From Phycisphaerae bacterium (GTDB taxonomy: Bacteria; Planctomycetota; Phycisphaerae; UBA1845): a stretch of DNA of 64,000 nt. Under the pieces are notes generated by a model. That model saw only the letters and a list, made by a program, of their open reading frames with translations. It was not told the DNA's origin and made no database searches. This document shows, one piece after another, positions 29,157-45,597 of the stretch. The position numbers and the translations under genes were made by a program. The stretch lies in NCBI GenBank assembly GCA_024102815.1, contig JAGFJJ010000069.1:14950-78949 (forward strand), given 5' to 3'. Position 1 is the first letter of the stretch. Every line of letters begins with the position of its first letter.

Positions 29157-29654
29157 ATGATCCGTTTCGGAATTCAGGTTCATGTTTCCCGCGCTGGATG
29201 GGCCACGGTTCACCTGGACACTGAAGATCGCGGACTCAACATTCGCTGTTCTGACCTTGGGGGTGACCGTATCGGCCAACTCGCGAGGGCCTTCGTGCAA
29301 CTCCTCGGAGATTCACACGGCAAGGCCGAAGTCGATTGCTGCGGCGAGCCAGAGAATGCGCTGATCAAGCTGCAGCGTGACGAAAGCGAGCTTGAAGTCG
29401 CCGTCAAGCGATATCATTGGGAAGGAGACTGTGCTCCCCAGGACGTGGTCCATCGAGCAATCAAATCCGGCAAGATAAGAGACTGGGACGAGTTGCGACA
29501 CGCTCGAAACAAGAAGGTTGCACTCAGGCAATTTGGTCCCTTTGTTGAAGCAATCAGGTCGTTGGTTCAGTCCTTCCAATACTTGGAGGATCGGATAGGT
29601 AGCAAACAGTACGAGGGGAAATGGGGTTTGCTTTTCCCTCGGTCGAGTTATTAG
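29157..29654 (+). CDS. Hypothetical protein in low-GC islet
   Basis: 165-aa ORF; local GC visibly lower than flanks; no recognizable motifs. Confidence 0.35.
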   Translation: MIRFGIQVHVSRAGWATVHLDTEDRGLNIRCSDLGGDRIGQLARAFVQLLGDSHGKAEVDCCGEPENALIKLQRDESELEVAVKRYHWEGDCAPQDVVHRAIKSGKIRDWDELRHARNKKVALRQFGPFVEAIRSLVQSFQYLEDRIGSKQYEGKWGLLFPRSSY

Positions 29655-29709
29655 CGATGAAGCAATTCCTGTCCGATTACCAGTACGGCCCGTAGGCCGG
29701 GAGGCTCGC

Positions 29710-29925
29710 ATGCTGCGATACCGAGTAATCATCGAACAAGACGAGGACGGGCAGTTCGTTGCCGAATGCCCCACTCTGCCGGGTTGCGTCAGTCAGGGAG
29801 CAACGCGCGATGAGGCCCTGGCCAACATAAAGGACGCGATGAACGGCTACCTTGAAAGCCTTCGCAAGCACGGCGAGCCGATCCCGCCGTCGATATGGGA
29901 AGAGACGGTGGAGCTGCCGGATTGA
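29710..29925 (+). CDS. hicB: HicB-family antitoxin (type II TA, UPF0150)
   Basis: YRVIIEQDEDGQFVAECPTLPGCVSQGATRDEALANIKDAMNGYLESL is the canonical HicB N-terminal RNase-H-like fold motif; GGGAGG RBS. Confidence 0.75.
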   Translation: MLRYRVIIEQDEDGQFVAECPTLPGCVSQGATRDEALANIKDAMNGYLESLRKHGEPIPPSIWEETVELPD

Positions 29926-30146
29926 CCCGCCTGCCGACCATCTCCGGTCGGGAAGCGGTCCGGGCGCTCCAGCAGCTCGGCTATGTGATGGACCACCAAA
30001 CCGGTGGGCACGTCATATTGCGCCATCAGGATCCGCCACATCGGCGCCTGACTATTCCGAACCACCGCGAATTGGCCAAGGGAACGTTGCGGGCGATCAT
30101 TCGACAGGCCGGACTGACCGTGGAGGAGTTCGCTGCGCTACTTTGA
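29922..30146 (+). CDS. hicA: HicA-family mRNA interferase toxin
   Basis: LPTISGREAVRALQQLGYVMDHQTGGHVILRH...NHRELAKGTLRAIIRQAGL matches the HicA dsRBD-like fold (GSHH..H...VPxHxx.lk.gTL..IlkQAGL). TTG start overlapping the hicB stop (alternative ATG at 29895). Confidence 0.7.
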   Translation: MTRLPTISGREAVRALQQLGYVMDHQTGGHVILRHQDPPHRRLTIPNHRELAKGTLRAIIRQAGLTVEEFAALL

Positions 30147-30545
30147 GGCAGTGGGGCAAATGCATCTGCGCCTCCGCGCGCGAATTCTTGAGGTGGACGG
30201 AGATCCCGGGTAATTCGTAACGTACACGGCTCTGCCACTTCGCGATGGGCGAGTGGCGTTGCCTGGCGCCCGACGCGAAACCGCATTCGGCGTCCTTCCA
30301 TTCGGTACTCCCAAACACCCCCAACACCCTTAACTCAACCCGCACGCTCTACCCCGTTTGTTTACCTGCAAAACGACCGGCCCGGTGAGCTTCAGCCTTC
30401 CCCCAGTGCTGAGGGGGCGTTCACTCAACCCTCGATTCAAAACAAGACACCCGTTTTCTAGTGGCGGTTGCCGCCGCCGGTGGTAGGCTATACGTGGTCG
30501 GGGCTTGAGGATCGAAGGCGTGTCGTTGCCCACGGGAGGCGTCCC

Positions 30546-31319
30546 ATGTTGGTGATCGCATCAATCGTCACGATTCTCGCCGCGGCCGAAGCGAGCCTCT
30601 CCGCCCTTCCGGCCGTCTACATCGTCTGCCTGATCGTCGGCGGAGGATTGCTCCTCGTGTCCCTCCTGGCAGGGGGAGGTTCGGAGCACGCCGCCAACGC
30701 CGATCTTACTGGTGACGTGGGCGGCGACGTGGCCATTGCTCCCGATGCGGGTATGGACGTGGGGCACGACTTCGGGGGACATGGCGACCTGGATGCCGGT
30801 CACGCCGCCGACCTCGGCAGCGCCGACGGCCAAGCCGCTGTCGCCGACCACGTGTCTTCATCTGCACTATCTCTGGCCAGTTGGTTTTCCGTGCAGTTCG
30901 TGGTCTATGCCCTCGCCGTGTTCGGCCTGATTGGAACGACGCTCACCTACCTGACCAGTGTTCCGCCATTCACCGTGCTTGTCGTCGCCGCGGCGGTCGG
31001 GCTCCTGCTCGGCCAGGGGGTTCACCAGGCCATGCGGGCCCTGAAGCGCTCGGGTATCAGCAGCGAAATCACCAGTCGTGATTTCCTCCACCAACCCGCC
31101 CGGGTAAGCGTACCCATCGATCCCGGCCGGCGGGGTGAAGTAGCCGTGGCGCTGCGCGGCGGAGAGCGATTCGTCGCCGCCGTCGCCCGCCGGCCGGACG
31201 ACCGGTTTCGCACGGGGGATCGCGTCATCGTCGTGGGATTTCAAGCCGGCGTGGCCGTCGTCACCACGCGGGAAGAGTTCGCTTTCGTAACCGGTCAATC
31301 GACGGAGCAGAACACATGA
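30546..31319 (+). CDS. NfeD-family membrane protein (flotillin-associated)
   Basis: N-terminal TM helices and C-terminal OB-fold-like soluble domain; stop overlaps the flotillin start (ATGA at 31316-31319). Confidence 0.65.
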   Translation: MLVIASIVTILAAAEASLSALPAVYIVCLIVGGGLLLVSLLAGGGSEHAANADLTGDVGGDVAIAPDAGMDVGHDFGGHGDLDAGHAADLGSADGQAAVADHVSSSALSLASWFSVQFVVYALAVFGLIGTTLTYLTSVPPFTVLVVAAAVGLLLGQGVHQAMRALKRSGISSEITSRDFLHQPARVSVPIDPGRRGEVAVALRGGERFVAAVARRPDDRFRTGDRVIVVGFQAGVAVVTTREEFAFVTGQSTEQNT

Positions 31320-32686
31320 ACTGGGTCACATTGGCACAATCCGATGCGGCGGGAGCTGCGATCCTCATTGGTTTCGGCCTGTTGGTCGTGGTCGTCGCGT
31401 TCATCTCGCTGGTGGCCAAGTTCACGGTCGTGGGGAACCCCAGCGAGGTGCTGGTTATCAGCGGACGGCGCTCGGCCGACCAACTCGGCTACCGCACGCT
31501 CATCGGCGGGCGAACGATCGTCATCCCCATTATCGAAAAAGTCGATCGCGTCAGCTTGCGGAACATGCAGGTGGCGCTGGAAGTCAAGGCGCAGTCCGGC
31601 GGCGGGAAGATGATCCCCATCACCGTAACCGGCGTTGCCAACGTCAAGGTCTCTTCCGAGCCGGAGATTCGCGGAAACGCGATCGAGCGCTTCCTGGGGC
31701 AACACCAGGAGGTCATGGAGCGTGTCGCCCGCGAAACGCTGGAAGGCGGCCTGCGGGCCGTCATCGGCAAGATCACGCCCGAGGAAATCGTCGAAGACCG
31801 CGACAAGTTCGTGGCCACGGTGATGAACGAGGTCAACGACGACTTCCGCAAGCTGGGCATGGTCATCGACAGCGTGAACATCCAGAACGTCCACGACGAC
31901 GATCAGTACCTGGAGTCCATCGCTCGCAAGGCCTCGGCCGATGTTCGCGCCAGCGCCCGCCAGTTCGAGGCTCAGCGCAAGGCCGATGCCGACGTGAAAG
32001 AGGCCGAGGCTGAGTCCCAGGCACGCAAGGCGCGCGCGGAACGCGACGCCGAAGCTCGCTCGGCCGAAGCCGCGGGACATCAGAAAGCCGAGTCCGCCCG
32101 GCTCGGCGCGGAAAAGGCCATCGCCGAAGCCAACAACGCCCTGCGCATCCGCCAGGCCGAGCTCGCCCGCGAGGCGGCCATCAAGGAAGCCGAAGCTCAG
32201 GAGGCCGCCGCCCAAGCGGAAGAGGCCCGGCTGTTGGCCACGCAGGTGAAACAGGCCAACGCCGACCGCGACACGGCCAAGGCCCAGGCCGAGGGCGCCG
32301 CTTCGACCATCCTCGAAGAGGGCAAGGCTCGCGCTCAGGCCATCGAGCAGATCGGCGCGGCCATTCAGCGTCACCCCGATGCTCTCAAGGTGCTCCTTGT
32401 CGAGATGATGCCGGGCGTCGTGCAGGAATTGACCAAGACCATCGCCAACGTCGACCTCAGCGCCGTCACCGTGATCGACGGCGGCGACGGGCGGGCGATC
32501 AGCGGCGCCGCCCTCGGCCGGGCAAGAATGCTCGCGGAATCACTGGCGACGCTCGAGTCGGTGCTCGGCGTCGACCTGCGGGCCCTGACGCGCAACGTCG
32601 CGGAGAACTTGGTGCAGAAGTCCGACGGCAAGCCTCAACCCGCCGCCACGGTTATGACGACACAAGGTGCCGCCAAGCCGCATTAG
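31316..32686 (+). CDS. Flotillin-family (SPFH/band-7) protein
   Basis: N-terminal TM anchor, SPFH domain, long Ala/Glu/Arg-rich coiled-coil (EAQRKADADVKEAEAE...), C-terminal flotillin tail. Confidence 0.8.
   Translation: MNWVTLAQSDAAGAAILIGFGLLVVVVAFISLVAKFTVVGNPSEVLVISGRRSADQLGYRTLIGGRTIVIPIIEKVDRVSLRNMQVALEVKAQSGGGKMIPITVTGVANVKVSSEPEIRGNAIERFLGQHQEVMERVARETLEGGLRAVIGKITPEEIVEDRDKFVATVMNEVNDDFRKLGMVIDSVNIQNVHDDDQYLESIARKASADVRASARQFEAQRKADADVKEAEAESQARKARAERDAEARSAEAAGHQKAESARLGAEKAIAEANNALRIRQAELAREAAIKEAEAQEAAAQAEEARLLATQVKQANADRDTAKAQAEGAASTILEEGKARAQAIEQIGAAIQRHPDALKVLLVEMMPGVVQELTKTIANVDLSAVTVIDGGDGRAISGAALGRARMLAESLATLESVLGVDLRALTRNVAENLVQKSDGKPQPAATVMTTQGAAKPH
32523..32686 (+). repeat. 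Copy 1 of 164-bp direct repeat (native flotillin 3' end)
   Basis: About 88% identical to 36359..36522 by eye. Confidence 0.7.
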
Positions 32687-32710
32687 TTCGCTGCGCCCGC
32701 GTTCAGCTTC

Positions 32711-32734
32711 GGGCCCACGCGACCCAAGGGGCCC
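32711..32734. terminator. Candidate bidirectional hairpin between convergent flotillin and methyltransferase genes
   Basis: GGGCCC (32711-32716) ... GGGCCC (32729-32734), a self-complementary stem with a 12-nt loop, followed by a T-containing tract. Confidence 0.3.
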
Positions 32735-32735
32735 G

Positions 32736-33518
32736 TCAGTTCTTCCGCATGATATAAAACACATAGCCGAACGTGTCACCGAAGCGGTGGCAGATGTCGA
32801 TCTCGCGCTCGTGGTCCTTGAGCACTTGCGCGAGGTCGGCGTCGCGTGCGGCCTTGGGTCGAAACCGGGCAATGCGTCGTTCGATCGGTGTCAGGTACTC
32901 GTCCCACCAGGCGGCGCGGGGCAGCACAAAATGATCGATCAGGTCGAATCCCGCCGCGACGGCGCGAGTTTCGTTGCCGGCAATACCGGTCATGGGCGGA
33001 TATTCCACATTCCAGAAGGTCCGACACGCCGAGGGAGGATCGTCCACGAGCCACGTGGCCTCGCTCGCAACGACGATGCCGCCGTCCCGGAGCATCGGCC
33101 GCCAGAGTCGCAGGCCTTCCCCAAAGCCGACGTTGTAGATTGCTCCCTCGCACCAGATCAGGTCGATGCTCCCGGGCGGCTGGTCGAGCTCCTCCATCCT
33201 TCCGAGGCGCGTTTCCACCAGGTCGGCAAGACCCGCGTCGAAGGCAGCCCGGCGAAGCTGGCCGAGGAAGGGCTCGTGAATGTCGACGGCGACGATCTTG
33301 CGGCGCAGTTCGCGTGCGAGCACAAGGGTCTGCTTGCCCGGCCCGCACCCGACGTCGAACACACACAAGTCGAATGCGGGTTCCCGGCTTTCGGTTCCGA
33401 GCCGCGATCTGCCTGCCGCTGCCCGCGCACGATTCAGCGCTTCGAGCGTGGCCAAGTCGCTGCCCGGTCCCTCGCGGGGGAGATCGCGGTGCAGTTCAAA
33501 GAAGGCTTGCCAGTTCAC
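32736..33518 (-). CDS. Class I SAM-dependent methyltransferase
   Basis: Motif I VFDVGCGPGKQTL; post-I acidic loop AVDIHE; 260 aa. Confidence 0.75.
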   Translation of the reverse strand: MNWQAFFELHRDLPREGPGSDLATLEALNRARAAAGRSRLGTESREPAFDLCVFDVGCGPGKQTLVLARELRRKIVAVDIHEPFLGQLRRAAFDAGLADLVETRLGRMEELDQPPGSIDLIWCEGAIYNVGFGEGLRLWRPMLRDGGIVVASEATWLVDDPPSACRTFWNVEYPPMTGIAGNETRAVAAGFDLIDHFVLPRAAWWDEYLTPIERRIARFRPKAARDADLAQVLKDHEREIDICHRFGDTFGYVFYIMRKN

Positions 33519-33536
33519 GGAGCGAATCCCGGTTTG

Positions 33537-36221
33537 TCACGGCCGCCCGTAGGCCGATCCCGAAGAAGCCTTGGCATGCTTCCGGATGAGCACGCTGGCA
33601 GCAGTAAGCAGCAGCAGCACCGACGCAACCAAGCCCCAATCGCCCAATGCCGGGACTTCGAACAAACAGGGGACGAACGACGGCGGATCGCCTGCGCCGC
33701 CCCACATGTCGACGAAGCGGCTCCAATCATCGCAGTCGATGTCTCCATCCCCATCAACGTCGCCCGGCGTACATTCCGGTGGGAGCGGGTCTCCCTCCGG
33801 TCCGGTGAAGCAGTCTCCGAAAGCGACAAAGTCCTCCTCGTCGACGACACCGTCTCCATCAAAGTTGAACGGGATGTCCGCGGGAATGTCGACCGTGAAA
33901 ATTCCGCGTCCGTGCGTTACCGCAAGCAGCGTATGCGAGTGATGCATGAACAGCAGGTCATCGACGCTGGCGTTGGCCGGACCTTCGTTCTGGGTGGACC
34001 AGGTTGCCCCGCCGTCGGCCGAGGCAAAGACGCCCACTTCCGTACCCGCATACAGCCAATCCGATCGGTTGGGATGGCGGGCGAGTCCATTGATCGGCGC
34101 GTCGGGCAGTCCCGTCGGACCGTCTCCCGTGATGTCCGCCCACGTGACGCCGTGGTCTTCCGTTTTCCAGAGGTTGTCTTCGGAAAACCCTCCGAAGCTG
34201 ACGTAGACCACGTCGGGATCATCCGGGTCGATCAGGATCCGCTCGACGTACCGATTGGGCAGGGGGTTGGCACTGCCGTTGTTATCGACGGCCGACCATG
34301 TTGGGGTGCCGGCCGTTCCGTTCGCCGTTCGATGGACCTCGCCGTTGTTCTGGCCGATCCAGATGACGTTCGAGGATCCCGGTGCCACGGCGATGGCGCT
34401 GATGTAGTCCGAACCGGGCCCGCGAATGGACTGCCACGCGGGCGTGGATGCCTTGACGTTATTGCTCCTCCAGAGGCTTGCGCCGCCGGCCAGCATCGTG
34501 TTCGCGTTGTTGGGGTCGAGGACAAAGGGGGCGACGAAGTTCGCGCTGGCACCGGCGTCGGCGATGCCACTGTAAATGTACTGTGCCGAGAGCCCGCCGT
34601 CGGTCGAACGGTGGATTCTCAAATTGACATATTCGCCGTAGCAGTAATTCGCGTTCGTTGCGTCGATGGCGCAGAACCCGCCGTCTCCCCCGAATGTCAA
34701 ATGGGCTTGGTCGTTGCCGGCGGCAAGCCGCAATGTTCCGTTGTCCTGGGTTCCGCCCAGGATTCGCCCGCTTGGTCCGTCGCCGGCGGCGGCGTAGAAC
34801 TGCACCGTGCGGTAGGATGCGTCGAGCTTCGCCCAGCCGGACGTGGTCGAGGCGGTGTAGATGTCTTCCGTACGCCAGACGCCTCCATCCGTGCCGACGT
34901 ACACCGCCTTGTTGTTGATGCCGTCGAACCCCGGGTCGCCCGTGATGACGTGATTGTCCACGTGCGGCTGCTGGCTCATGATGTACCCGGCGCTGATCTG
35001 CGTCAGGTGCGCGCCGCCGTCCGTGCTCTTGTAGAAGTTGTATCCGCCGGTCACCAGGAAATCGGGATTCGTAGGATCGACCCACAACGGGTTGGCATAC
35101 CAGCTCACGCCGCTGCTCTGCGACGCAACGGTGCGAAGTTCGTAGCTCTGTCCGCCATCGATCGATCGCCAGATCTTACCACCGTCTGCCGCGGCGGACG
35201 CGTAGACGATATCCGGCTGGCTCGGCGCATAGGCGAGCTCAATGCGAGAGTAGAATCCGTATACGCGGCTGAGTCCGCCGGCGCACGTGTTCCATGAGAG
35301 CCCTCCGTCGGTCGAATAGACCGCGCGGTGAAACTAGTCTCCCACATCCCAGTCGTAGTCGAGGATATGGCCCACCGCGTTGTTCCCGTTGGTGGGGTCG
35401 TAGGCCACGTAGTACGAACCCTGGGCCGGAAGCGGATTCGTCCACGTCCGGCCGCGATCGGTACTTCGTCGAATGCCGCCGTAGAGTGTGGCCGCGAGCA
35501 ACGTGTCGGGGACATCCGGAGAAACCGCGATCCGGTTGACGTTTTCCCAATTGGCCGTGCTGAGCAATGGAAACCAATTGACCCCGCCGTCCGTTGATCG
35601 GTACACGCCGGCACCGCCCAATGCGTCCCCGTTAAAGAACCCCTCACCGGTTCCGGCGTAGAGCAAGTCCGGATCCAGCGGGCTGATGGCCATCGAGCAG
35701 ATGGCCAGATTCGGGAGCCAGTCATTCACCGGAGCCCAGGTCGCTCCGCGGTCAACACTCTGCCAGATGCCCCCGCTGACCGCCCCGGCCCAGAGCGTGT
35801 TTGGATCAAGGGGATGAATAACAAGCGAACGTGTCCGCCCGCCGACGTTGTTGGGGCCGCGCTCCATCCACTTGTCGGGATCGATGCCGGCCAGCGTCTT
35901 GTCGGGTTGCGCCAGCCAGAAATCCGCGTTGGCCTCTCGCTGCGCAAGGGCAATACGCAACGCGTCCTTGGCAATCTCCCCATTCTCGTCCCTCCAGCGC
36001 AGGCGGCGCCAACGCATGGCCTCATCTGGATGAGTGGCGCGTTCAGGCTTGCCGACGGACGGGCCTCGAACCGGGTCGGGGGCCGGCGCCGGTTGAACGG
36101 AAGCGCGGTTCGGAGAGGTGGTGTCCGGAACAAGGAAATCGGGCGCGGGGGCGATGATCGCCGCTGCGATGACAACCAGCCCGATCGCCGCAAACAAAAG
36201 TTGTGTGTGTCTCTGCACCAT
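33537..36221 (-). pseudogene. BNR/Asp-box repeat surface protein (about 894 aa) interrupted by one in-frame TAG at 35334-35336
   Basis: ORFs 35334..36221 and 33537..35108 share a frame (36221-35108 = 1113 = 3 x 371). Translation across the TAG continues ...DYDWDVGD*FHRAVYSTDGGLSW... with BNR motifs (S-x-D-G-G-x-W) on both sides. N-terminal signal anchor; C-terminal dockerin-like GDVDGDGDIDCDD and TM anchor. Confidence 0.6.
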
Positions 36222-36358
36222 CGCCTCCCAGTCACTTCCCGGCGGCTACCCGGGCTGGGTTTTCCATCTTAACCGACCCGAAATCGAACACAAAGCAATG
36301 AAAGGCGCGGCAAGGGCGGCTTCAATTCATACGTTATTGTCGTGGCTCTGAAAGCCGG

Positions 36359-36522
36359 CAAAAATGCTCGCGGAATCACTGGCAACGCTCGAGTCGGTGC
36401 TCGGCGTGGACCTGCGGGCCCTGACACGTAGCATTGCGGAGAACCTCGTGCAGAAGTCCGGCAGCAATCCTCAACCCGCCGCCACGGTCATGACTTCGCA
36501 GGGAATCGCCAAGCCGCACTGA
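36359..36522 (+). repeat. Copy 2 of 164-bp direct repeat
   Basis: Near-duplicate of the flotillin 3' end (32523..32686). Confidence 0.7.
36364..36522 (+). pseudogene. Flotillin C-terminal gene fragment (52 codons)
   Basis: Encodes MLAESLATLESVLGVDLRALTRSIAENLVQKSGSNPQPAATVMTSQGIAKPH*, versus the flotillin C-terminus ...RMLAESLATLESVLGVDLRALTRNVAENLVQKSDGKPQPAATVMTTQGAAKPH*. Confidence 0.55.
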
Positions 36523-36634
36523 TCTGCTGCAGCCGCGCGGACTGGAATCGGCGGCTCAGGAGATGGTCCGCACCGCGGAACCTGGCCCGAGTATGCCCAC
36601 GCTTCGTTGCGAACCGTGGGCATAGCACCCGGCA

Positions 36635-37621
36635 CTAAGCTGGAGCTGACCGGTGGAGTCTGTATACCGCAATGCCGGCTCCGACGATGAGTAGGGCCAT
36701 GGCGGCGAGCCCCCATTCAGAGTTGGCTGGAACGTCCCCACAAGATCGAACAACCGCATCGTCTACCTTGATCGTGGCCACAAATTCGCCTGTCACGAGT
36801 GTCTCGATGTCCGTGCGGTTGTCCGGTGTTTGTCCCTCTGGTATTTCAAGCGGCGCCTTGTGGAGACCGTATTGGAGTGCGTCAGAGAAGTACAAGACAC
36901 CACGGGTTGAGTCGATCGCAAGGGCGTATGGATTCGTGAACCCGGTACCGGGACGAATCAGATCCTCAACATTCGAACCATCAAAGTCAGCCCGCTGGAG
37001 TTTCCCCTGCTGCGTAGTGCCAACACCCTGATCAGTCCAATACAGCTTTCCGCGGTGAATATCCAGAGCCACGTCGCGCTCTGCGACAAGGCCTGTTACC
37101 AGCAACGCGATTCCCATACCGTCGAAGTTGACGCGCCTAACCTCGCCGGCGTGCGTGAAATACAATTGCCCTGCGCAGACATCGAGGTCAATCCACCCGG
37201 GGCCCGAACCCTCAACGAAGTCGAGGACAAGCTCTACTTGAGACCCATCGAGATTAGCCCGTTGTATGTCACCACCGCCGTCAGACCAGTACATCTTCCC
37301 GCCGATGAGGTCAAGTGCGATGTCATGGAGATTGCCAGGCAGGCCGCTTACGAGAGTTTCCGCGGTACTCCCATCAAGGTAAGCTCGCTTAATGTCACCT
37401 CCATCCGTCCAGTAAACGTAGCCACCATCAACATCAACAGCAACTCCGGAGCCCGTATCGATGGATGCGATCACGTCTTCGATATTCGATCCATCGAAAT
37501 CGGCCCGGCGGACGGCGTGACCGTTGCTCCAATAGACTTTGCCAGCGCTTGCCTCATGCCAACCTCCAACAACCACAAATGTGACCGCGATGAAGCGAAG
37601 TATCCCGTTGGTTGGTGTCAT
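36635..37621 (-). CDS. YWTD/LDL-receptor class-B-type beta-propeller repeat protein with C-terminal TM anchor
   Basis: Six repeats containing KVYWSN, YVYWTD, KMYWSD, LYFTH, KLYWTD, LYFSD; N-terminal signal; C-terminal hydrophobic LAAMALLIVGAGIAVYRLHR. Lower GC than surroundings. Confidence 0.6.
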   Translation of the reverse strand: MTPTNGILRFIAVTFVVVGGWHEASAGKVYWSNGHAVRRADFDGSNIEDVIASIDTGSGVAVDVDGGYVYWTDGGDIKRAYLDGSTAETLVSGLPGNLHDIALDLIGGKMYWSDGGGDIQRANLDGSQVELVLDFVEGSGPGWIDLDVCAGQLYFTHAGEVRRVNFDGMGIALLVTGLVAERDVALDIHRGKLYWTDQGVGTTQQGKLQRADFDGSNVEDLIRPGTGFTNPYALAIDSTRGVLYFSDALQYGLHKAPLEIPEGQTPDNRTDIETLVTGEFVATIKVDDAVVRSCGDVPANSEWGLAAMALLIVGAGIAVYRLHRSAPA

Positions 37622-37777
37622 TGCCCGCTCCTTCACCGGGAATTTCAGCGGATTCGACCTGCAACCATGGCCCTTTCCGTCGATACAGCAAGGCGAAGCA
37701 GTCTGCATTCTATGGCGAGTCGATTTCGGCAAAGCTCTCTTACCAGCATCGTCACCAGGCCCACGGTGCCTCGCAAA

Positions 37778-39540: not shown

Positions 39541-40758
39541 CTACATCCAGTCGCGTACGAGCTTGCGGTTACCGATGTAGAGCTCGTTCGGCGCGTTGGG
39601 ATCCAGCGCCCACTTCATCCGCTCGATGCCCTCGGTGATGTCCTTGATCGCCCCGCAGGTGGAAAGCCGCAGGTGGCCGTCCAATCCGAATTCGATCCCC
39701 GGCACGGTAAGCACGCGGACCTTGTCCACGAGCATCTGGGCGAGCTTGGATGAGTTCTTGTCGTAGTAGCTGAAATCCGCGAAGCAATAGAAGGTTCCGT
39801 CAGGCGTATGACAGCGCACGCCTTCAAAGGACTTGAGCAGGCTCACCAGGACGTTGCGGTTGTTCTCCAGCGTCAGGCGGAGACTTTCCACGCTGGACTG
39901 TACGCCGTTGAGCGCCGCCGCCGCGGCGTGCTGGAGCAGAACCGAAGGTCCTGACGTCTGGTGGCCCTGGATGTTGGTCATCGTCTCGATGAGTTTCTTG
40001 TTGGCGACCGCCCAGCCGATGCGGAAACCGGTCATGGCGTACTGCTTGGATACCCCGTTGATGACCACGAGCTTGGAACTCTCGCCCAGGTCCTTGGCGT
40101 AGTTGTAGCAGTTGAGCGGCTTGCGCCCGTCGAAGAGCAGGCGCTGGTAGATGTCGTCCATGATGAGGTACAGCCCGCGCTTCTCGCAGAACTGGACGAT
40201 GTCGCTGATGAACGACTCGGAATAGGCCGCGCCCGTCGGGTTGTTCGGGCTATTGATGATGACGGCTTTCGTGTAGCTGCCGACCTTCTGCTCGATGTCG
40301 CGCAGCGTGGGATAGAAGCTGCCGTCTTCGGGAATGACCGGAACGGGGACCGCGCCGCAAAGCTTCACCATTTCCGGATAGCTCACCCAGTAGGGACAGG
40401 GGAAGACGACTTCGTCCTGCGGGTTCAGAATGGCCTGAAGGCAGACCATGATCGCCTGCTTCGCCCCGCCGGAAGCCATGACATGCTCCGGCGCGACCTT
40501 CCGGGCGTAGCATTCTTCCGTGTTGCGGATGATCGCCTTTTTCAGCGCGGGTATACCGTCGGCCGGTGTGTAGCGGATTTCACCTGTGCCGAGCAGGGCC
40601 GCGGCCGCGACGATCGCGTCCATCGGCGGTTTGCTCTTGGGTTCGCCGCCGCCTAGGTGAATGACCGGTTCGCCCTTTTCGCGTAGCAGCGCGGCCGTCT
40701 CGTTGAGCTTGAGCGTTGCCGACTGCCCGATGGAACGTGCGATCTGGCTGAGACTCAT
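39541..40758 (-). CDS. Pyridoxal-phosphate-dependent aminotransferase, class I/II (aspartate aminotransferase-like)
   Basis: 405 aa; SPNNPTG and PLP-Lys region SKQYAMTGFRIGW. Confidence 0.8.
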   Translation of the reverse strand: MSLSQIARSIGQSATLKLNETAALLREKGEPVIHLGGGEPKSKPPMDAIVAAAALLGTGEIRYTPADGIPALKKAIIRNTEECYARKVAPEHVMASGGAKQAIMVCLQAILNPQDEVVFPCPYWVSYPEMVKLCGAVPVPVIPEDGSFYPTLRDIEQKVGSYTKAVIINSPNNPTGAAYSESFISDIVQFCEKRGLYLIMDDIYQRLLFDGRKPLNCYNYAKDLGESSKLVVINGVSKQYAMTGFRIGWAVANKKLIETMTNIQGHQTSGPSVLLQHAAAAALNGVQSSVESLRLTLENNRNVLVSLLKSFEGVRCHTPDGTFYCFADFSYYDKNSSKLAQMLVDKVRVLTVPGIEFGLDGHLRLSTCGAIKDITEGIERMKWALDPNAPNELYIGNRKLVRDWM

Positions 40759-40967: not shown

Positions 40968-42146
40968 TCAGGACGCCAGGAACTGCTCGAGGCGGTTGAG
41001 GCCTTCGTCGATGTGGGCCAAGGTTGCCCCGAAAGACAGGCGAATGTGGTCGTCCATGCCGAATGCCAGCCCCGGCACGACGGCCACGCGGGCGCGCTCC
41101 AGCAGCAGGTCGGCGAATTCCACGGAACCCGAAACCCCCAGATTCGCGTATGTCGCGCCAACATTGGGAAAGCAGAAGAATGCACCCGTGGGCTTGGGGC
41201 ACCAGACGCCGCGCATCGACGCCAGGCGCGGATACATGTAGTTGCCCCGCGCCTCGAACTCCCGCCGCATTTCCTCCACGACGGTCTGATCGCCGGCAAG
41301 GGCCTCGGCCAGGGCGTACTGGTTGAACGTGCAGGCCCCGCTGGTGGTCTGCGACTGGAGCTTGTCCATCGCCTTGATGATCTCGGCCGGCCCGGCGGCG
41401 TACCCGAGCCGCCAGCCGGTCATGGCATAGGTCTTGGACGGAGCGTTCACCGTGATCGTCCGGGCGAACGCGGGTTCGCTCACGGCCGCGAAGCTCAACG
41501 CCTGTTGGCCGTGGTAAAGGAGCTGGTCGTAGATCTCGTCGGAGAGCACGAGGAGGTCGCGTTCGGCGAGCACGTTGGCCAGTGCCCGGGTTTCGTCGGG
41601 GTTGTAGGTCACGCCGCTGGGGTTGCACGGGGAGTTCATGATGACCATGCGGGTTCGCGGCGTGAGGACGGCGGCCAGCTCGTCCGGCGTGAGTTTGTAG
41701 TCGTTTTCGCGCCGGCCGGTGACGAAAACCGGAACGCCGCCCGCGAGTCGGACCATCTCCGGATAGCTGACCCAGTAGGGGACGGGGATGACGACCTCGT
41801 CGCCGGGATCGATGACGGCGTGGATGGCCTGGAAGACAGCCATTTTCCCGCCGGGGGTGATGATGACCTGCTCCGGGGTGTAGTTCAGCCCGGCGTCGCG
41901 AGCGAGCTTGGTACAGACGGCCTCCTTGGCGAACTTCAGCCCGGATGCGGGCTTGGAGTAGCCCGTGGCGCCTTCCAGCAGGGCGGCGATAGCGGCCTGC
42001 TTGATGTGGTCCGGGGTGTGGAATTCCGGCTCGCCGGCGCCGAAGGTAATGACATCGATGCCCTCGGCCTTCATCCGCGAGGCCTTGGCCGAGACCGCCA
42101 GCGTGGCGGATTCCTCCAGGTTCAACGTACGTGCGGAAAGCTTCAT
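40968..42146 (-). CDS. Pyridoxal-phosphate-dependent aminotransferase, class I/II (paralog of previous)
   Basis: Start MKLSARTLNLEES (ATG 42144-42146). SPCNPSG and SKTYAMTGWRLGY. The track 5' extension was rejected. Confidence 0.8.
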   Translation of the reverse strand: MKLSARTLNLEESATLAVSAKASRMKAEGIDVITFGAGEPEFHTPDHIKQAAIAALLEGATGYSKPASGLKFAKEAVCTKLARDAGLNYTPEQVIITPGGKMAVFQAIHAVIDPGDEVVIPVPYWVSYPEMVRLAGGVPVFVTGRRENDYKLTPDELAAVLTPRTRMVIMNSPCNPSGVTYNPDETRALANVLAERDLLVLSDEIYDQLLYHGQQALSFAAVSEPAFARTITVNAPSKTYAMTGWRLGYAAGPAEIIKAMDKLQSQTTSGACTFNQYALAEALAGDQTVVEEMRREFEARGNYMYPRLASMRGVWCPKPTGAFFCFPNVGATYANLGVSGSVEFADLLLERARVAVVPGLAFGMDDHIRLSFGATLAHIDEGLNRLEQFLAS

Positions 42147-42483
42147 TGGCTTAGTTCTCCGGTCCCTAAGCGAAGAATCGGCAAAACGTATTGATCGGCC
42201 AAATGCCCGCCCGGCTCGAACGGAGGCTATCTTCGAGGGAGCAGGGGACAGGGGCAAGTCAGGTGCATCGGCCCGGGGTGAGAGGCATTGCTCTTGCGGG
42301 GGACATGAAGCTCCTTTCGCTTGGTTGATTCGAAGTGGACGGGATCGTCGCTCCTTCGGGATCGATCGCGCCCGCAGCCGGCGAACGGGCGGTGGACGTG
42401 CGTCTCCTCCACAAGTAATAACGCGCAAGGGCGCTCAGTCGGGAGTGCGAAAAAAGTGAGCGCCCCGTTATGTGGCGCATTCC

Positions 42484-42681: not shown

Positions 42682-45597
42682 TCAAGGAATTGCAAGTTGC
42701 AGAAAACTGAAATCAAGTAAATCGGTGTCGCCGTCGAGATCGACGTCTGAGCACGTGCAAGTCGCACCTTTCGTCATGCCTGGTCCGGCCAGGCAATTGG
42801 CTACGAGGGCGAAGTCGCTCAGGTTAATTGAGGCGCTGCCGTCGCAGTCTCCGCGGGATGGCGTTTCGTAGGCACCCATATCGACGACAGGCGGGGGAGA
42901 ACCACCGGTGTCGGGTGTGATGAGGTCGTCAGTGAAGCGTGGCATCCCGGCGAGGTCCAGCGGGAGAGGTTCAGTTGTGTCGCCATCGCCATCGAGATCA
43001 GCAACATCGGCCGGTACGGCGGAGTTGTCTCCGGCATCGATGCAGGGCGAACCGGGAATCAGGCGCAAGTCGCCGAGGTCGTCGTCGCTTGTTCCCCATA
43101 AACCATCGTGACCCACGCCCGGTGGCTTCAAGAAGAGTGTTTCCGCCGAGATGTTTCCGTCGATTCCGGTCTGGTCGGAGAGCCCAGAGTAATCATACCA
43201 CATATTGCGACCAATGGAGTTATTTCGGAAAAGAGGCGCAGAATCAGGAACCTGTCGGTAGATTCCCGAGTAGTTGAATGCAAACACGGAATTCGCGATT
43301 GTCGGTGACGAATTGTGAAAGGAGATGGCTCCACCCCGCAGCAGGTACGAGTTATTGGCCACGACGGTGCAGTTGGCCATCTCTGCGTCAGCGAGGTCGA
43401 AGTAGAGACCCCCGCCTTCGATCTTGGCACGATTGCTGCTAATCGTGCTGTTCGAAATTCCTGGAGAGGCTGCGGAAACGTACACGCCGCCGCCGTTCGT
43501 TTCCGCAGTGTTGCCGTGAATGATTGTGCTTACAATCTGAGGCGTTGAGGATGTAACGTAGATCCCACCCCCTTTATCAGCCGTATTGTCGCGAATGCTG
43601 CAGTTTTTTAGTCGCACAGCAGGCCCCCCCAAACAAATGCCACCGCCCAATTGACCAGCGGTGTTACCCGAGATAGTGCAAGAAACGAAGCCGATAGGCG
43701 ATTGCGAGACCGAAACACCAGCGCAGTTATCAGCAGAATTGTTGGAGAAGATGCTGTTCACGACGTCTGAGTAGGATCTGTACAGAGAAATTCCGCCAGC
43801 GCTCTCGGCGTGATTGGAAGTGACCGTCATGTTCGCTACGGCCGGAGAGGCCGACCAAATCCGCATGCCGCCTCCCCAAGTCGCATGGCCATGCGTCAGC
43901 GTGAAGCCATCGATCCGGCTTGTGTGATGGCCAATTTCGGCAACGACCACCGAACCAAGGTCGTCGCCATCGAGGGTCGTGATATTGGCCTTCCAGTCAC
44001 GCTCGGTGCGTGCTGTTTCCGAGCCGTTAAAGCCGCCATAGAGATACACATAAGGCGGAAGATTAACGCGCTCATGATAAGTGCCGCCCTGCACCCAGAC
44101 TTCGCCGCAGGTTGCGGCGGCTGCGTCAATGCCGGCTTGTACAGTGCGCTTGGCGGCACTCCACGAGGAGCCGTCGTATGCATCGTCGCCGTCAGGGCTG
44201 ACGCGCACGACCAGGGTCGGGCCGGCCGGCCAGACTTCGCGGTCCCATTCGTCGGCGCCAATATCCACCTTTCCACCTTCCGGAAGAACGCGAGGTTGTC
44301 CGTCGATGTCGTGGTCGCCGATCGCGAACGCGTTGTCGCCGGCGTGTTTGCAGGGCGAATCAAACTGGAGATGCACGTTTCCGCAACCAAGGTCGCCGAA
44401 CTTGGGATCAACTGAGATGTTGTCGTCCATTCCCGTGGGGTCAGGGATCGCGCCGGAGAAGGAGGCCTCGCCAAAGAAGCAGTTGGAACGAAAAACCGGC
44501 GATCCGGGCCTGTCGGGGTCCATGTAGATGCCCGTCAAGTTGTGGGCAACGATCGTATTTGTAACCGTTGGAGAGGACCGGTCCGCGAGGTAGATGCCAG
44601 CACCAACCTGCGCCGTGTTGCTCGCAATCGTGTTGTTTGCAAGTGTCGGGGATGAGCCATCCAAATACATTCCGCCGCCGTTCATGCCAGCGGAGTTCTC
44701 CAGTATGACGCTGTTGGCGAGCTGGGGAGACGCACTGTCTAAGAATATTCCGCCACCATCGTACCGGGCATAGTTGTGCCGGGTCGTAAAGCCCAATAGC
44801 GTGGGATTACAGTCATAAACGTACAACCCGGCCCCATCGTTGGATGCAGTATTCCTCGTAATCATGAAGTTGGACAACGTGGTATCGCAGTCGGAAAGGT
44901 AGAGACCGCCACCGCCGCCAGCGTGGTTGTACGCAAGCGTGATATCCGAAGCGACAAGGTCGGCGGAAAAGACCATGATTCCACCGCCGCGGTCACTCGA
45001 GTTACGCAGGACTTCGACGCTTTCGAGGACAGGCGCGCCGTCAGTGATATAGATGCCACCGCCGAGAACGTACGCAAAGTTGTCCGAGATTGTGCACTTC
45101 GTAATCCTGAGGAAGGCATTGTTGAGATACATCCCGCCGCCGACCAGCGCGCCACCGTTGCGAACAGTGAAGCCCTCGAATGTAGCGTCTTCTGGTGTCA
45201 AATCGTCGAAGGTGACGACGGTGCCCGCTTGATTGCCATCGATGACCGTCGCGGCGACGATGACCGGATCATCGGGCTTAATACTGCGCAGAGTAATGGA
45301 CTTCGCGGGAAAGAGGATATTCTCGACGTACGCACCTGCCGGAGAGCCGGTCGACGGGAGCACGATGATCGTGTCACCATCCACTGCGGCGTCGAGCGCT
45401 TCCTGTATGGTGGCAAAATCCCAGGTTCCGTTCCAGTCGACGATGATGGTTCGACCGGTGATCGAGGAACGGAGTTGCTCGACGATGAACGGATCGATAG
45501 GGTCAAACGTCCGCGTGTCGGCTGCCAGGGCGGGAAGGGCGAAGGTTAGGATACTGAGGGCACATGGGACCACATGGAATAGGGGGCACGGGGGCAT
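42682..45597 (-). CDS. Secreted right-handed parallel beta-helix repeat protein (pectate-lyase-fold/PbH1 repeats) with C-terminal dockerin-like Ca-binding repeats
   Basis: 971 aa; signal peptide MPPCPLFHVVPCALSILTFALPALAAD; many N..GGG(I/M)Y beta-helix rungs; C-terminal DLDGDGDTTEP and DVDLDGDTDLLDF. Confidence 0.7.
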   Translation of the reverse strand: MPPCPLFHVVPCALSILTFALPALAADTRTFDPIDPFIVEQLRSSITGRTIIVDWNGTWDFATIQEALDAAVDGDTIIVLPSTGSPAGAYVENILFPAKSITLRSIKPDDPVIVAATVIDGNQAGTVVTFDDLTPEDATFEGFTVRNGGALVGGGMYLNNAFLRITKCTISDNFAYVLGGGIYITDGAPVLESVEVLRNSSDRGGGIMVFSADLVASDITLAYNHAGGGGGLYLSDCDTTLSNFMITRNTASNDGAGLYVYDCNPTLLGFTTRHNYARYDGGGIFLDSASPQLANSVILENSAGMNGGGMYLDGSSPTLANNTIASNTAQVGAGIYLADRSSPTVTNTIVAHNLTGIYMDPDRPGSPVFRSNCFFGEASFSGAIPDPTGMDDNISVDPKFGDLGCGNVHLQFDSPCKHAGDNAFAIGDHDIDGQPRVLPEGGKVDIGADEWDREVWPAGPTLVVRVSPDGDDAYDGSSWSAAKRTVQAGIDAAAATCGEVWVQGGTYHERVNLPPYVYLYGGFNGSETARTERDWKANITTLDGDDLGSVVVAEIGHHTSRIDGFTLTHGHATWGGGMRIWSASPAVANMTVTSNHAESAGGISLYRSYSDVVNSIFSNNSADNCAGVSVSQSPIGFVSCTISGNTAGQLGGGICLGGPAVRLKNCSIRDNTADKGGGIYVTSSTPQIVSTIIHGNTAETNGGGVYVSAASPGISNSTISSNRAKIEGGGLYFDLADAEMANCTVVANNSYLLRGGAISFHNSSPTIANSVFAFNYSGIYRQVPDSAPLFRNNSIGRNMWYDYSGLSDQTGIDGNISAETLFLKPPGVGHDGLWGTSDDDLGDLRLIPGSPCIDAGDNSAVPADVADLDGDGDTTEPLPLDLAGMPRFTDDLITPDTGGSPPPVVDMGAYETPSRGDCDGSASINLSDFALVANCLAGPGMTKGATCTCSDVDLDGDTDLLDFSFLQLAIP

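What the first reader, a model, noticed from the sequence alone, without database searches (positions are those of the whole stretch)
32523..36522. 164-bp direct repeat of the flotillin 3' end brackets a 3.7-kb segment (methyltransferase plus amber-interrupted BNR gene)
Positions 36359..36522 repeat the last 164 bp of the flotillin gene (32523..32686), stop codon included, at about 88% identity. The copy is a stand-alone 52-codon remnant with its own ATG (36364) that encodes the flotillin C-terminal tail. The intervening DNA carries two minus-strand genes (SAM methyltransferase and the BNR protein). Directly beyond the second copy lies a lower-GC YWTD propeller gene. This pattern fits an insertion into, or recombination between, duplicated flotillin sequences, or the remnant of a tandem nfeD-flotillin duplication that was overwritten. 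Either way it marks a structural rearrangement hotspot.
Basis: seen in the sequence. Interest (0 to 1): 0.6.

Follow-up and report, generated by a model that had tools for sequence, protein, structure and literature searches.

The report
Orphaned flotillin gene tail, recombination scar
A second, stand-alone copy of the last 52 codons of a flotillin gene lies 3.8 kb downstream of the intact gene in a Phycisphaerae genome; it is most likely a recent scar left when DNA from a sister lineage recombined into this spot, which is an ordinary kind of bacterial genome rearrangement.

Summary
Window 32517-32701 and 36353-36537 form a gap-free direct repeat of 181-185 nt at 83-85% identity (reader said 88%). 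It is the only long repeat in 64 kb (self-BLAST E=9e-52). It covers the last 52 codons of flotillin, the stop, and about 15 nt beyond.

Copy B keeps its frame and stop position. The copies differ mainly at synonymous sites (dN/dS 0.23; conserved 22-codon block: 4 synonymous, 0 replacement changes). Simulation rejects B having drifted as a dead fragment for more than about a quarter of the divergence. So the copies diverged as ends of working genes, and B was orphaned recently.

The two tails share a terminus found in no other database flotillin. Their dS is 0.37, against 1.0-1.4 to the nearest relatives.

The 3.65-kb interval holds a class I methyltransferase and a BNR gene with TGG->TAG at an invariant Trp. 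It has host-like codon usage, and no integrase, transposase or tRNA lies in the parts of the window examined.

Best reading: allele displacement by recombination with sister-lineage DNA, either homology-facilitated illegitimate recombination or a single crossover with a circle. No close relative exists in any database, so the ancestral state and exact mechanism stay unresolved. "Hotspot" is not shown. This is an ordinary finding of low interest.

The parts
30468..31319 (+). nfeD-like membrane protein gene (the called start is 30546), overlapping the flotillin start by 4 nt; conserved partner of flotillin
   Evidence: tblastn finds it upstream of flotillin in all 11 GTDB loci. The gene calls on L001 and L017 carry a faint NfeD_TM hit.
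31316..32686 (+). Intact flotillin (SPFH/Band 7) gene, 456 aa, stop TAG
   Evidence: Pfam Band_7 E=5.7e-18. NCBIfam FloT model partial hit. 527 homologues with E<=1e-30; the best non-self hits are 80-83% identical, several named flotillin by JGI.
32517..32701 (+). Repeat copy A: the last 52-55 codons of the intact flotillin gene, the stop codon and about 15 nt of 3' flank
32736..33518 (-). Class I SAM-dependent methyltransferase, 260 aa (cargo gene 1); specific function unknown
   Evidence: Pfam Methyltransf_25/11. No NCBIfam model reaches its cut-off. The nearest homologue is 57% identical and the rest are 45% or lower, in very diverse metagenomes. Host-like GC3 of 0.77.
33537..36221 (-). BNR/Asp-box (Sortilin-Vps10-like) secreted or surface protein gene, 894 codons, interrupted by one TAG (cargo gene 2); 18 nt upstream of the methyltransferase on the same strand
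   Evidence: Homologues are uninterrupted proteins, mostly about 780-1040 aa among the best hits (commonly 820-850 aa), at most 66% identical.
35334..35336 (-). In-frame TAG replacing an invariant Trp (TGG->TAG)
   Evidence: Trp is present in 30 of 30 aligned homologues. TAG is an ordinary stop in 10 of 32 window genes, and no other gene has an internal stop.
36222..36352 (.). BNR upstream intergenic region; its right end (36352|36353) is the abrupt non-homologous junction with copy B
   Evidence: In-register identity drops from 18-20 of 20 to background at this point. The region has no significant fold (z=+0.74).
36353..36537 (+). Repeat copy B: orphaned flotillin 3' end. The ORF at 36364-36522 (52 codons, ATG...TGA) is 87% identical in protein to copy A
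36522..36624 (.). Strongly structured 3' region after copy B, between the convergent remnant and the YWTD gene (hairpins at 36522-36564 and 36592-36624). It has no U-tract, so it is not a canonical intrinsic terminator
   Evidence: Folding 36520-36640 gives MFE -56.3 kcal/mol, z=-2.47, with 2 of 200 shuffles folding as well. The region after copy A gives z=-0.38.
36635..37732 (-). YWTD (LDL-receptor class B) beta-propeller protein with an IPTL-CTERM sorting signal; it neighbours the scar and is compositionally atypical
   Evidence: Pfam Ldl_recept_b E=1.8e-13. IPTL-CTERM scores 22.1 bits against a 20.8 cut-off. GC3 is 0.58 and the codon-usage fit is the worst in the window. The best homologues are 41-47% identical.

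Best explanation
Copy B is the orphaned 3' end of a flotillin allele from a closely related (sister) lineage or from the resident genome. One recombination event joined two versions of this locus and left it behind. DNA from a relative about 85% identical at the nucleotide level recombined here with one homologous crossover in or upstream of flotillin and one non-homologous join at 36352|36353. That is homology-facilitated illegitimate recombination, or equivalently a single Campbell-type crossover between the chromosome and a circular fragment carrying about 185 nt of flotillin 3' sequence. The result is one complete flotillin gene ending in copy A, then the methyltransferase-BNR operon, then the displaced old 3' end (copy B) with its own structured 3' flank, then the YWTD gene. 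The scar is recent and has no dedicated function. Shown: the repeat and its limits, selection-shaped divergence between the copies, recency of the orphaning, lack of mobility genes, and lack of a second paralogue among the 120 best flotillin hits listed. Inferred: the recombination route, which side is donor and which is recipient, and that the 52-codon ORF is not used. A by-product of this layout is that homologous recombination between A and B would excise a 3,836-bp circle and leave an intact hybrid flotillin gene.
For: 1. The repeat is real and unique in the window.
2. Of 23 differences in 159 coding nt, 14 are at third positions, giving dN/dS 0.23.
3. In the family-conserved 22-codon block there are 4 synonymous and 0 replacement changes. 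Simulation gives P=0.001 if B was neutral for half of the divergence, 0.04 for a quarter and 0.20 for an eighth.
4. There are no indels in 181 nt, and the stop stays at the same codon although two of its bases changed (TAG to TGA).
5. A and B share the lineage-specific terminus ...NLVQKS...PQPAATVMT.QG.AKPH, which is absent from the 44 next-best database flotillins whose tails were inspected. The dS between A and B is 0.37, against 1.0-1.4 to the nearest relatives.
6. Copy B keeps about 15 nt of homologous 3' flank and is followed by a significantly structured region (z=-2.47), as expected for a natural gene end facing a convergent gene. Copy A's flank is unstructured.
7. The left limit of copy B is abrupt and non-homologous.
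8. There is no tRNA. No integrase or transposase appears in the cargo or in the Pfam scans and gene calls covering about 6.6-57 kb of the window. No viral contig carries the tail.
9. The cargo genes have host-like codon usage, consistent with a closely related donor.
10. Published precedents for displaced 3' ends made by HFIR or by circular intermediates: PMC5361080 and PMC2935791.
Against: No donor, recipient or empty-site sequence exists in any collection searched, so the route is inferred from the scar alone. HFIR is experimentally rare (PMC5361080). Natural transformation or other DNA uptake is not documented here for Phycisphaerae. The selection tests rest on only 52 codons. Host-like composition of the cargo also fits the cargo being native and the other flank being the import. 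All data come from one metagenomic run.
Confidence: 0.55

Rival explanations
1. Decayed integrase-type genomic island of the e14 / phage 21 kind. Such an element integrates into the 3' end of a protein gene and carries a surrogate 3' end, so the gene stays intact and the original end is displaced to the far att site. Here the integrase and mobility genes would since have been lost.
For: The architecture matches icd/icdC around e14: an intact gene extends into the element and a C-terminal pseudogene sits at the far end (PMC13626634). Both copies are in frame, and they share identical runs of 21, 23, 17 and 20 nt that could hold a crossover core.
Against: The 3.65-kb interval holds only a methyltransferase and a BNR gene. 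No recombinase, excisionase or phage/conjugation gene is present, and no room is left for one. No integrase appears in the parts of the window examined, about 6.6-57 kb. The cargo has host-like codon usage. No viral contig carries a flotillin tail. Differences are spread along the whole repeat, with no obvious single identical core flanked by diverged arms.
Confidence: 0.12
2. Truncated second paralogue. The lineage once had two working flotillin genes a few kb apart, and a recent deletion removed all but the last 185 nt of the second one.
For: This explains the selection-shaped divergence and the recent orphaning equally well. It also explains the natural-looking 3' flank of copy B.
Against: None of 17 related loci has two flotillin genes within 10 kb. 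No second close paralogue from this MAG is among the 120 best flotillin hits listed. Because copy B is followed by the YWTD gene and not by a second methyltransferase-BNR pair, a tandem origin needs at least three events.
Confidence: 0.12
3. The 52-codon ORF is a functional small gene: a free flotillin C-terminal peptide that modulates flotillin assembly and is kept by selection. This can coexist with any origin scenario.
For: The ORF is intact with an ATG and a stop, dN/dS is low, and it lies downstream of a divergent intergenic region that must hold the BNR promoter.
Against: Recency explains all of these features. No Shine-Dalgarno-like sequence is evident on reading the bases upstream of the ATG, and the scan finds no sigma-70-like promoter. 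No homologous stand-alone ORF was seen next to flotillin in the 11 GTDB loci scanned, and the exact ORF occurs only on this genome's own contigs. The ATG is simply the conserved Met of the RARMLxESL motif.
Confidence: 0.05
4. In-situ segmental duplication. The flotillin 3' fragment was copied within this genome as a dead fragment and has slowly diverged to 85%.
For: This is the simplest reading of a direct repeat.
Against: A dead copy should accumulate replacements, stops and indels. The combined probability of the observed pattern (no aa change in the conserved block, open frame, stop retained) is 0.0005 if B was neutral for half the divergence and 0.026 for a quarter. The stop codon also changed twice yet remains a stop.
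Confidence: 0.04
5. Metagenome assembly chimera that joins two co-occurring related species at shared k-mers.
For: The data are a MAG and a contig from one run. A and B share exact 21-23-mers.
Against: The junction at the left edge of copy B is non-homologous, so no shared k-mer could create it. Two different assemblies (the NCBI MAG contig of 401 kb and the Logan contig of 25 kb) give the same order through both copies.
Confidence: 0.03

Closest known systems
C-terminal displacement at rhs, CDI and T6SS effector loci (Jackson et al. 2009, PMC2935791; Kirchberger et al. 2017, PMC5361080)
   Same: An incoming complete gene end takes over, and the previous 3' end is pushed downstream and kept as an orphan fragment. 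The proposed routes are the same: homologous recombination with a circular intermediate, or homology-facilitated illegitimate recombination with an upstream anchor. No integrase is involved.
   Different: In those loci the displaced tips encode different toxin domains with immunity genes, and they accumulate in arrays under diversifying selection. Here the two tips are 87% identical in protein, nothing suggests a functional swap, there is a single orphan, and the gene is a housekeeping-type membrane scaffold. The cargo between the tips is an unrelated methyltransferase-BNR operon.
e14 prophage in icd with the icdC C-terminal pseudogene, E. coli K-12 (Hill, Gray and Brody 1989, as cited in PMC13626634)
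   Same: An intact gene runs into the inserted DNA, and a homologous C-terminal fragment of that gene sits at the far end. The differences between the copies are mostly synonymous or conservative. Excision would regenerate an intact hybrid gene.
   Different: e14 is a 15-kb prophage with its own site-specific recombination system and SOS-inducible excision. Here the interval is 3.65 kb with no recombinase or phage genes.
Homology-facilitated illegitimate recombination (de Vries and Wackernagel 2002; Prudhomme et al. 2002; Meier and Wackernagel 2003; all as cited in PMC5361080; also PMC3240628)
   Same: The scar has one homologous side and one abrupt non-homologous junction, and it brings in genes absent from the recipient.
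   Different: HFIR has been demonstrated experimentally in naturally transformable species and in E. coli conjugation, and never in Planctomycetota. The microhomology at the junction cannot be checked here without parental sequences.

Membership tests
Integrase-mediated island carrying a surrogate 3' end of its target gene (e14 / phage 21 type) | Direct repeats made of the target gene's 3' end flank the insert, and the target gene stays intact | tested here: met
Integrase-mediated island carrying a surrogate 3' end of its target gene (e14 / phage 21 type) | A tyrosine or serine recombinase gene inside the element next to one att site | tested here: not met
   The interval holds only the methyltransferase and the BNR gene. 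No recombinase appears in the parts of the window examined, about 6.6-57 kb.
Integrase-mediated island carrying a surrogate 3' end of its target gene (e14 / phage 21 type) | An identical core (crossover) sequence shared by attL and attR | tested here: inconclusive
   There are several identical runs of 12-23 nt and no single obvious core.
Homology-facilitated illegitimate recombination product | One boundary lies in homologous DNA and the other is an abrupt non-homologous junction | tested here: met
   Identity falls to background left of 36353 and right of 32701/36537.
Homology-facilitated illegitimate recombination product | Short microhomology at the illegitimate junction, and identifiable donor and recipient tracts | not testable with these tools
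   No parental or sister genome exists in any collection searched.
Rhs / CDI / T6SS C-terminal displacement array | A displaced 3' tip is retained downstream of the current full-length gene | tested here: met
Rhs / CDI / T6SS C-terminal displacement array | The tips encode divergent toxin domains, each followed by a cognate immunity gene | tested here: not met
   The tips are 87% identical flotillin tails. The neighbours are a methyltransferase, a BNR gene and a YWTD gene.
Transposon or IS insertion with target-site duplication | Short identical target duplication, terminal inverted repeats, and a transposase | tested here: not met
   The repeat is 181-185 nt long and 15-17% diverged. No terminal inverted repeats are found and no transposase.
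In-situ segmental duplication of a gene fragment | The fragment evolves neutrally from birth, accumulating replacements, stops and indels | tested here: not met
   dN/dS is 0.23, with 0 replacements in the conserved block. P=0.001-0.04.
nfeD-flotillin (SPFH) operon | An SPFH/Band 7 domain protein is immediately preceded by an NfeD-like membrane protein gene on the same strand | tested here: met
   Band_7 E=5.7e-18. The gene pair is conserved in all 11 GTDB loci by tblastn. In L013-L018 a gene immediately precedes flotillin on the same strand. A faint NfeD_TM hit is present on L001 and L017.

The most novel reading that the evidence does not exclude
The 52-codon ORF could be a retained, expressed mini-protein: a free flotillin C-terminal tail that tunes flotillin oligomerisation. 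Alternatively, the A/B repeats could act as a recombination switch that reversibly pops the methyltransferase-BNR cassette out as a 3.8-kb circle while always leaving a working flotillin gene. Neither reading is excluded, because the ORF is intact and both copies are in frame. Recency explains every supporting feature equally well.
Probability: 0.06. Interest if true: 0.55.

Novelty: new member of a known kind. Interest (0 to 1): 0.2.

Why it matters
The finding mainly serves as a clean, datable example of allele displacement without any mobile-element machinery, in Planctomycetota (class Phycisphaerae). Recombination and gene flow are poorly documented in that phylum. It shows that DNA from a lineage about 15% diverged can be fixed by one homologous and one non-homologous join, carrying accessory surface-protein genes with it. 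For annotation, the 52-codon ORF and the two BNR halves should be flagged as a gene remnant and a pseudogene. It does not open a new biological question.

Tried and rejected
- Synteny or empty-site comparison. I fetched 11 GTDB Phycisphaerae loci and six loci (from five contigs) of the three closest flotillins with usable contigs. All keep nfeD-flotillin, but each has different downstream genes. With dS above 1 they are too distant to reconstruct the ancestral state.
- Search for sister lineages carrying the lineage-specific tail. A degenerate DNA pattern found 0 hits in the JGI metagenomes, and viral contigs gave 0. Exact-protein look-ups for flotillin, the remnant ORF and PEPCK returned only this genome's own contigs.
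- Search for the cargo as a mobile module. The best BNR homologues (at most 66% identical) sit in unrelated contexts without a methyltransferase or flotillin. The 80 methyltransferase loci (at most 57% identical) have no flotillin, BNR or YWTD neighbours.
- Compositional evidence that the 3.7-kb segment is foreign. None was found; the outlier is the YWTD gene.
- TAG recoding or read-through in the BNR gene. Rejected, because TAG terminates 10 of 32 genes and occurs internally only once, at an invariant Trp.
- A shared IPTL-CTERM signal on the BNR protein. Not supported by Pfam.
- Canonical promoter or terminator near copy B. The scans found no promoter and only background-level terminator-like hits.
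- An assembly artefact is judged unlikely but cannot be excluded without the reads.


Full report
**Observation.** The repeat exists as described. The repeat finder gives 32521-32701 vs 36357-36537: 181 nt, 85% identity, no gaps, spacing 3,836 nt. MAFFT and a self-BLASTN of the window (84.5%, E=9e-52) agree. In-register identity rises from background to 18-20 of 20 at about 32517 and falls back after 32701. The unit is therefore the last 52-55 codons of flotillin, its stop codon, and about 15 nt of 3' flank. It is the only repeat of 40 nt or more in the 64-kb window, with a chance expectation near 1e-48. Copy B carries a 52-codon ORF (36364-36522) that starts at the conserved Met of the RARMLxESL motif and ends at the homologous stop position (TAG in A, TGA in B).

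**Surroundings.** The window comes from a Phycisphaerae MAG (locus tags J5J06_...; contig 401 kb). A separately assembled Logan contig from run SRR13799154 has the identical order. The gene order is:
- HicB and HicA
- nfeD (30468/30546-31319, +)
- flotillin (31316-32686, +; Band_7)
- copy A, which is part of flotillin
- class I SAM methyltransferase (32736-33518, -)
- BNR/Sortilin-Vps10-type gene (33537-36221, -)
- 131 nt of intergenic DNA
- copy B
- about 100 nt of structured spacer
- YWTD propeller gene with an IPTL-CTERM signal (36635-37732, -)
- PEPCK, then aminotransferases

The BNR gene has a single in-frame TAG at 35334-35336. It replaces a Trp present in 30 of 30 aligned homologues, which are uninterrupted proteins of roughly 780-1040 aa among the best hits, commonly 820-850 aa. 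TAG is an ordinary stop in this genome (10 of 32 genes) and occurs internally nowhere else. This is therefore a fresh nonsense mutation (TGG to TAG) or a base-call error, not recoding. The window has no tRNA. No integrase or transposase appears in the Pfam scans and gene calls covering about 6.6-57 kb of it.

**What the two copies tell us.** Among 159 coding nt there are 23 differences, 14 of them at third positions. Nei-Gojobori gives dS 0.37, dN 0.08 and dN/dS 0.23. In the 22 codons that are nearly invariant across Phycisphaerae flotillins (MLAESLATLESVLGVDLRALTR) there are four synonymous and no replacement changes. All seven replacements lie in the tail that is hypervariable in the family. 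I simulated neutral decay of copy B. The probability of no amino-acid change in that block is 0.001 if B had been a dead fragment for half of the A-B divergence, 0.04 for a quarter and 0.20 for an eighth. Adding the open frame and the retained stop gives 0.0005, 0.026 and 0.17. There are no indels in 181 nt, and the stop codon changed at two positions yet is still a stop. The two copies therefore diverged while both were ends of working flotillin genes, and copy B lost its gene body only recently. That rejects a simple in-situ duplication of a fragment followed by drift.

**Where the second allele came from.** A and B share a terminus (...NLVQKS...PQPAATVMT.QG.AKPH) found in none of the other 44 top-scoring database flotillins whose tails were inspected, out of a search of 5.8 billion proteins. 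Their dS is 0.37. The dS between this flotillin and the nearest sequenced relatives (80-83% amino-acid identity) is 1.0-1.4. Copy B thus comes from something far closer than any sequenced genome: a sister lineage or a paralogue in this genome. No second close paralogue from this MAG appears among the 120 best flotillin hits listed. None of 17 related loci has two flotillins within 10 kb. Copy B is also followed by a significantly structured region (MFE -56.3 kcal/mol, z=-2.47; hairpins at 36522-64 and 36592-624). That looks like a natural gene end facing the convergent YWTD gene. The flank of copy A is unstructured (z=-0.38).

**Mechanism.** The simplest single event producing this layout is recombination between two diverged versions of the locus, with one homologous crossover and one non-homologous join at 36352|36353. 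This could be homology-facilitated illegitimate recombination, in which an incoming fragment carrying a complete flotillin plus methyltransferase-BNR replaced all but the last 185 nt of the resident gene. The mirror image, with the right flank as the import, is equally possible. A single Campbell-type crossover between the chromosome and a circular fragment carrying about 185 nt of flotillin 3' sequence would also do it. Both routes have been proposed for the 'C-terminal displacement' seen at rhs and T6SS effector loci (PMC2935791; PMC5361080). The layout also mirrors icd/icdC around prophage e14 (PMC13626634). Here, however, there is no recombinase and no room for one, so an integrase-type island would have to be heavily decayed. 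Codon usage does not mark the 3.7-kb cargo as foreign (GC3 0.77, within the window range of 0.70-0.88). The outlier is the YWTD gene beyond copy B (GC3 0.58). I therefore cannot say which flank is the newcomer.

**What could not be resolved.** No empty site, donor or sister genome exists in GTDB representatives, the JGI metagenomes, viral contigs or the exact-match gene index. The relatives that are available have unrelated genes downstream of flotillin (DJ-1/sulfatase, Asn synthase, DEAD helicase). Homologues of the cargo genes sit in unrelated contexts. 'Hotspot' is therefore unproven: one event is visible.

**Verdict.** This is a genuine, recent recombination scar of a known kind, seen here in a flotillin gene of an uncultured Phycisphaerae bacterium. 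It has no dedicated machinery and no sign of function. The 52-codon ORF should be annotated as a gene remnant, and the split BNR gene as a pseudogene pending confirmation of the TAG. Interest is low. The only more novel readings are a functional flotillin-tail micro-protein or an excision switch. Both remain formally possible but lack any specific support.

Noticed in passing
window 35334-35336 (- strand), within the BNR gene 33537-36221: A single TGG->TAG change at a Trp that is invariant in 30 of 30 homologues splits an otherwise intact 894-codon BNR/Sortilin-Vps10-like gene into 295-aa and 523-aa calls. This is either a very recent pseudogenisation or a base-call error. TAG is a normal stop elsewhere in the window.
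   Followed up: yes
window 36635-37732 (-): The YWTD (LDL-receptor class B) propeller protein with an IPTL-CTERM sorting signal is the compositional outlier of the window (GC3 0.58 against 0.70-0.88, worst codon-usage fit). It has no homologue above 47% identity, so it is a candidate for recent horizontal acquisition right next to the scar.
   Followed up: partly
window 29710-30146 (+), low-GC patch 29200-29800: A HicB/HicA toxin-antitoxin pair lies directly upstream of nfeD, next to a GC dip (0.54-0.56). In relatives L013 and L014 a HicAB pair is inserted inside the nuo operon about 6 kb from their flotillin.
   Followed up: no
L013/L014 9354-14813 and L015 9360-11374: In the closest flotillin-bearing relatives the nfeD-flotillin pair sits beside or within the NADH dehydrogenase (nuo) gene cluster. 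In L013 and L014 it separates nuoH from nuoD/C. The window has no nuo genes nearby, so the two-gene module occupies very different contexts across Phycisphaerae.
   Followed up: no
window 39541-40758 (-) and 40968-42428 (-); 40367-40416 vs 41752-41801: Two adjacent class I/II aminotransferase paralogues share a 50-nt stretch at 86% identity. This is the only other self-similarity in the window.
   Followed up: no
window 42682-45597 (-): A 971-aa protein with Chlamydia-PMP repeats and a C-terminal dockerin domain has lowered GC3 (0.66). It is another variable surface-protein gene in this neighbourhood.
   Followed up: no
flotillin residues ~430-456 (window 32603-32686) and homologues P0002-P0045: The last 25 aa or so of Phycisphaerae flotillins are hypervariable in sequence and length, while the preceding MLxESLATLESVLGIDLR block is almost invariant.
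   Followed up: partly
window 32736-33518 (-): The methyltransferase reaches no curated NCBIfam cut-off. Apart from one 57% hit, its relatives are 30-45% identical and come from very diverse metagenomes (gut, sludge, sediments). It appears to be an accessory gene of patchy distribution and not a Phycisphaerae core gene.
   Followed up: partly
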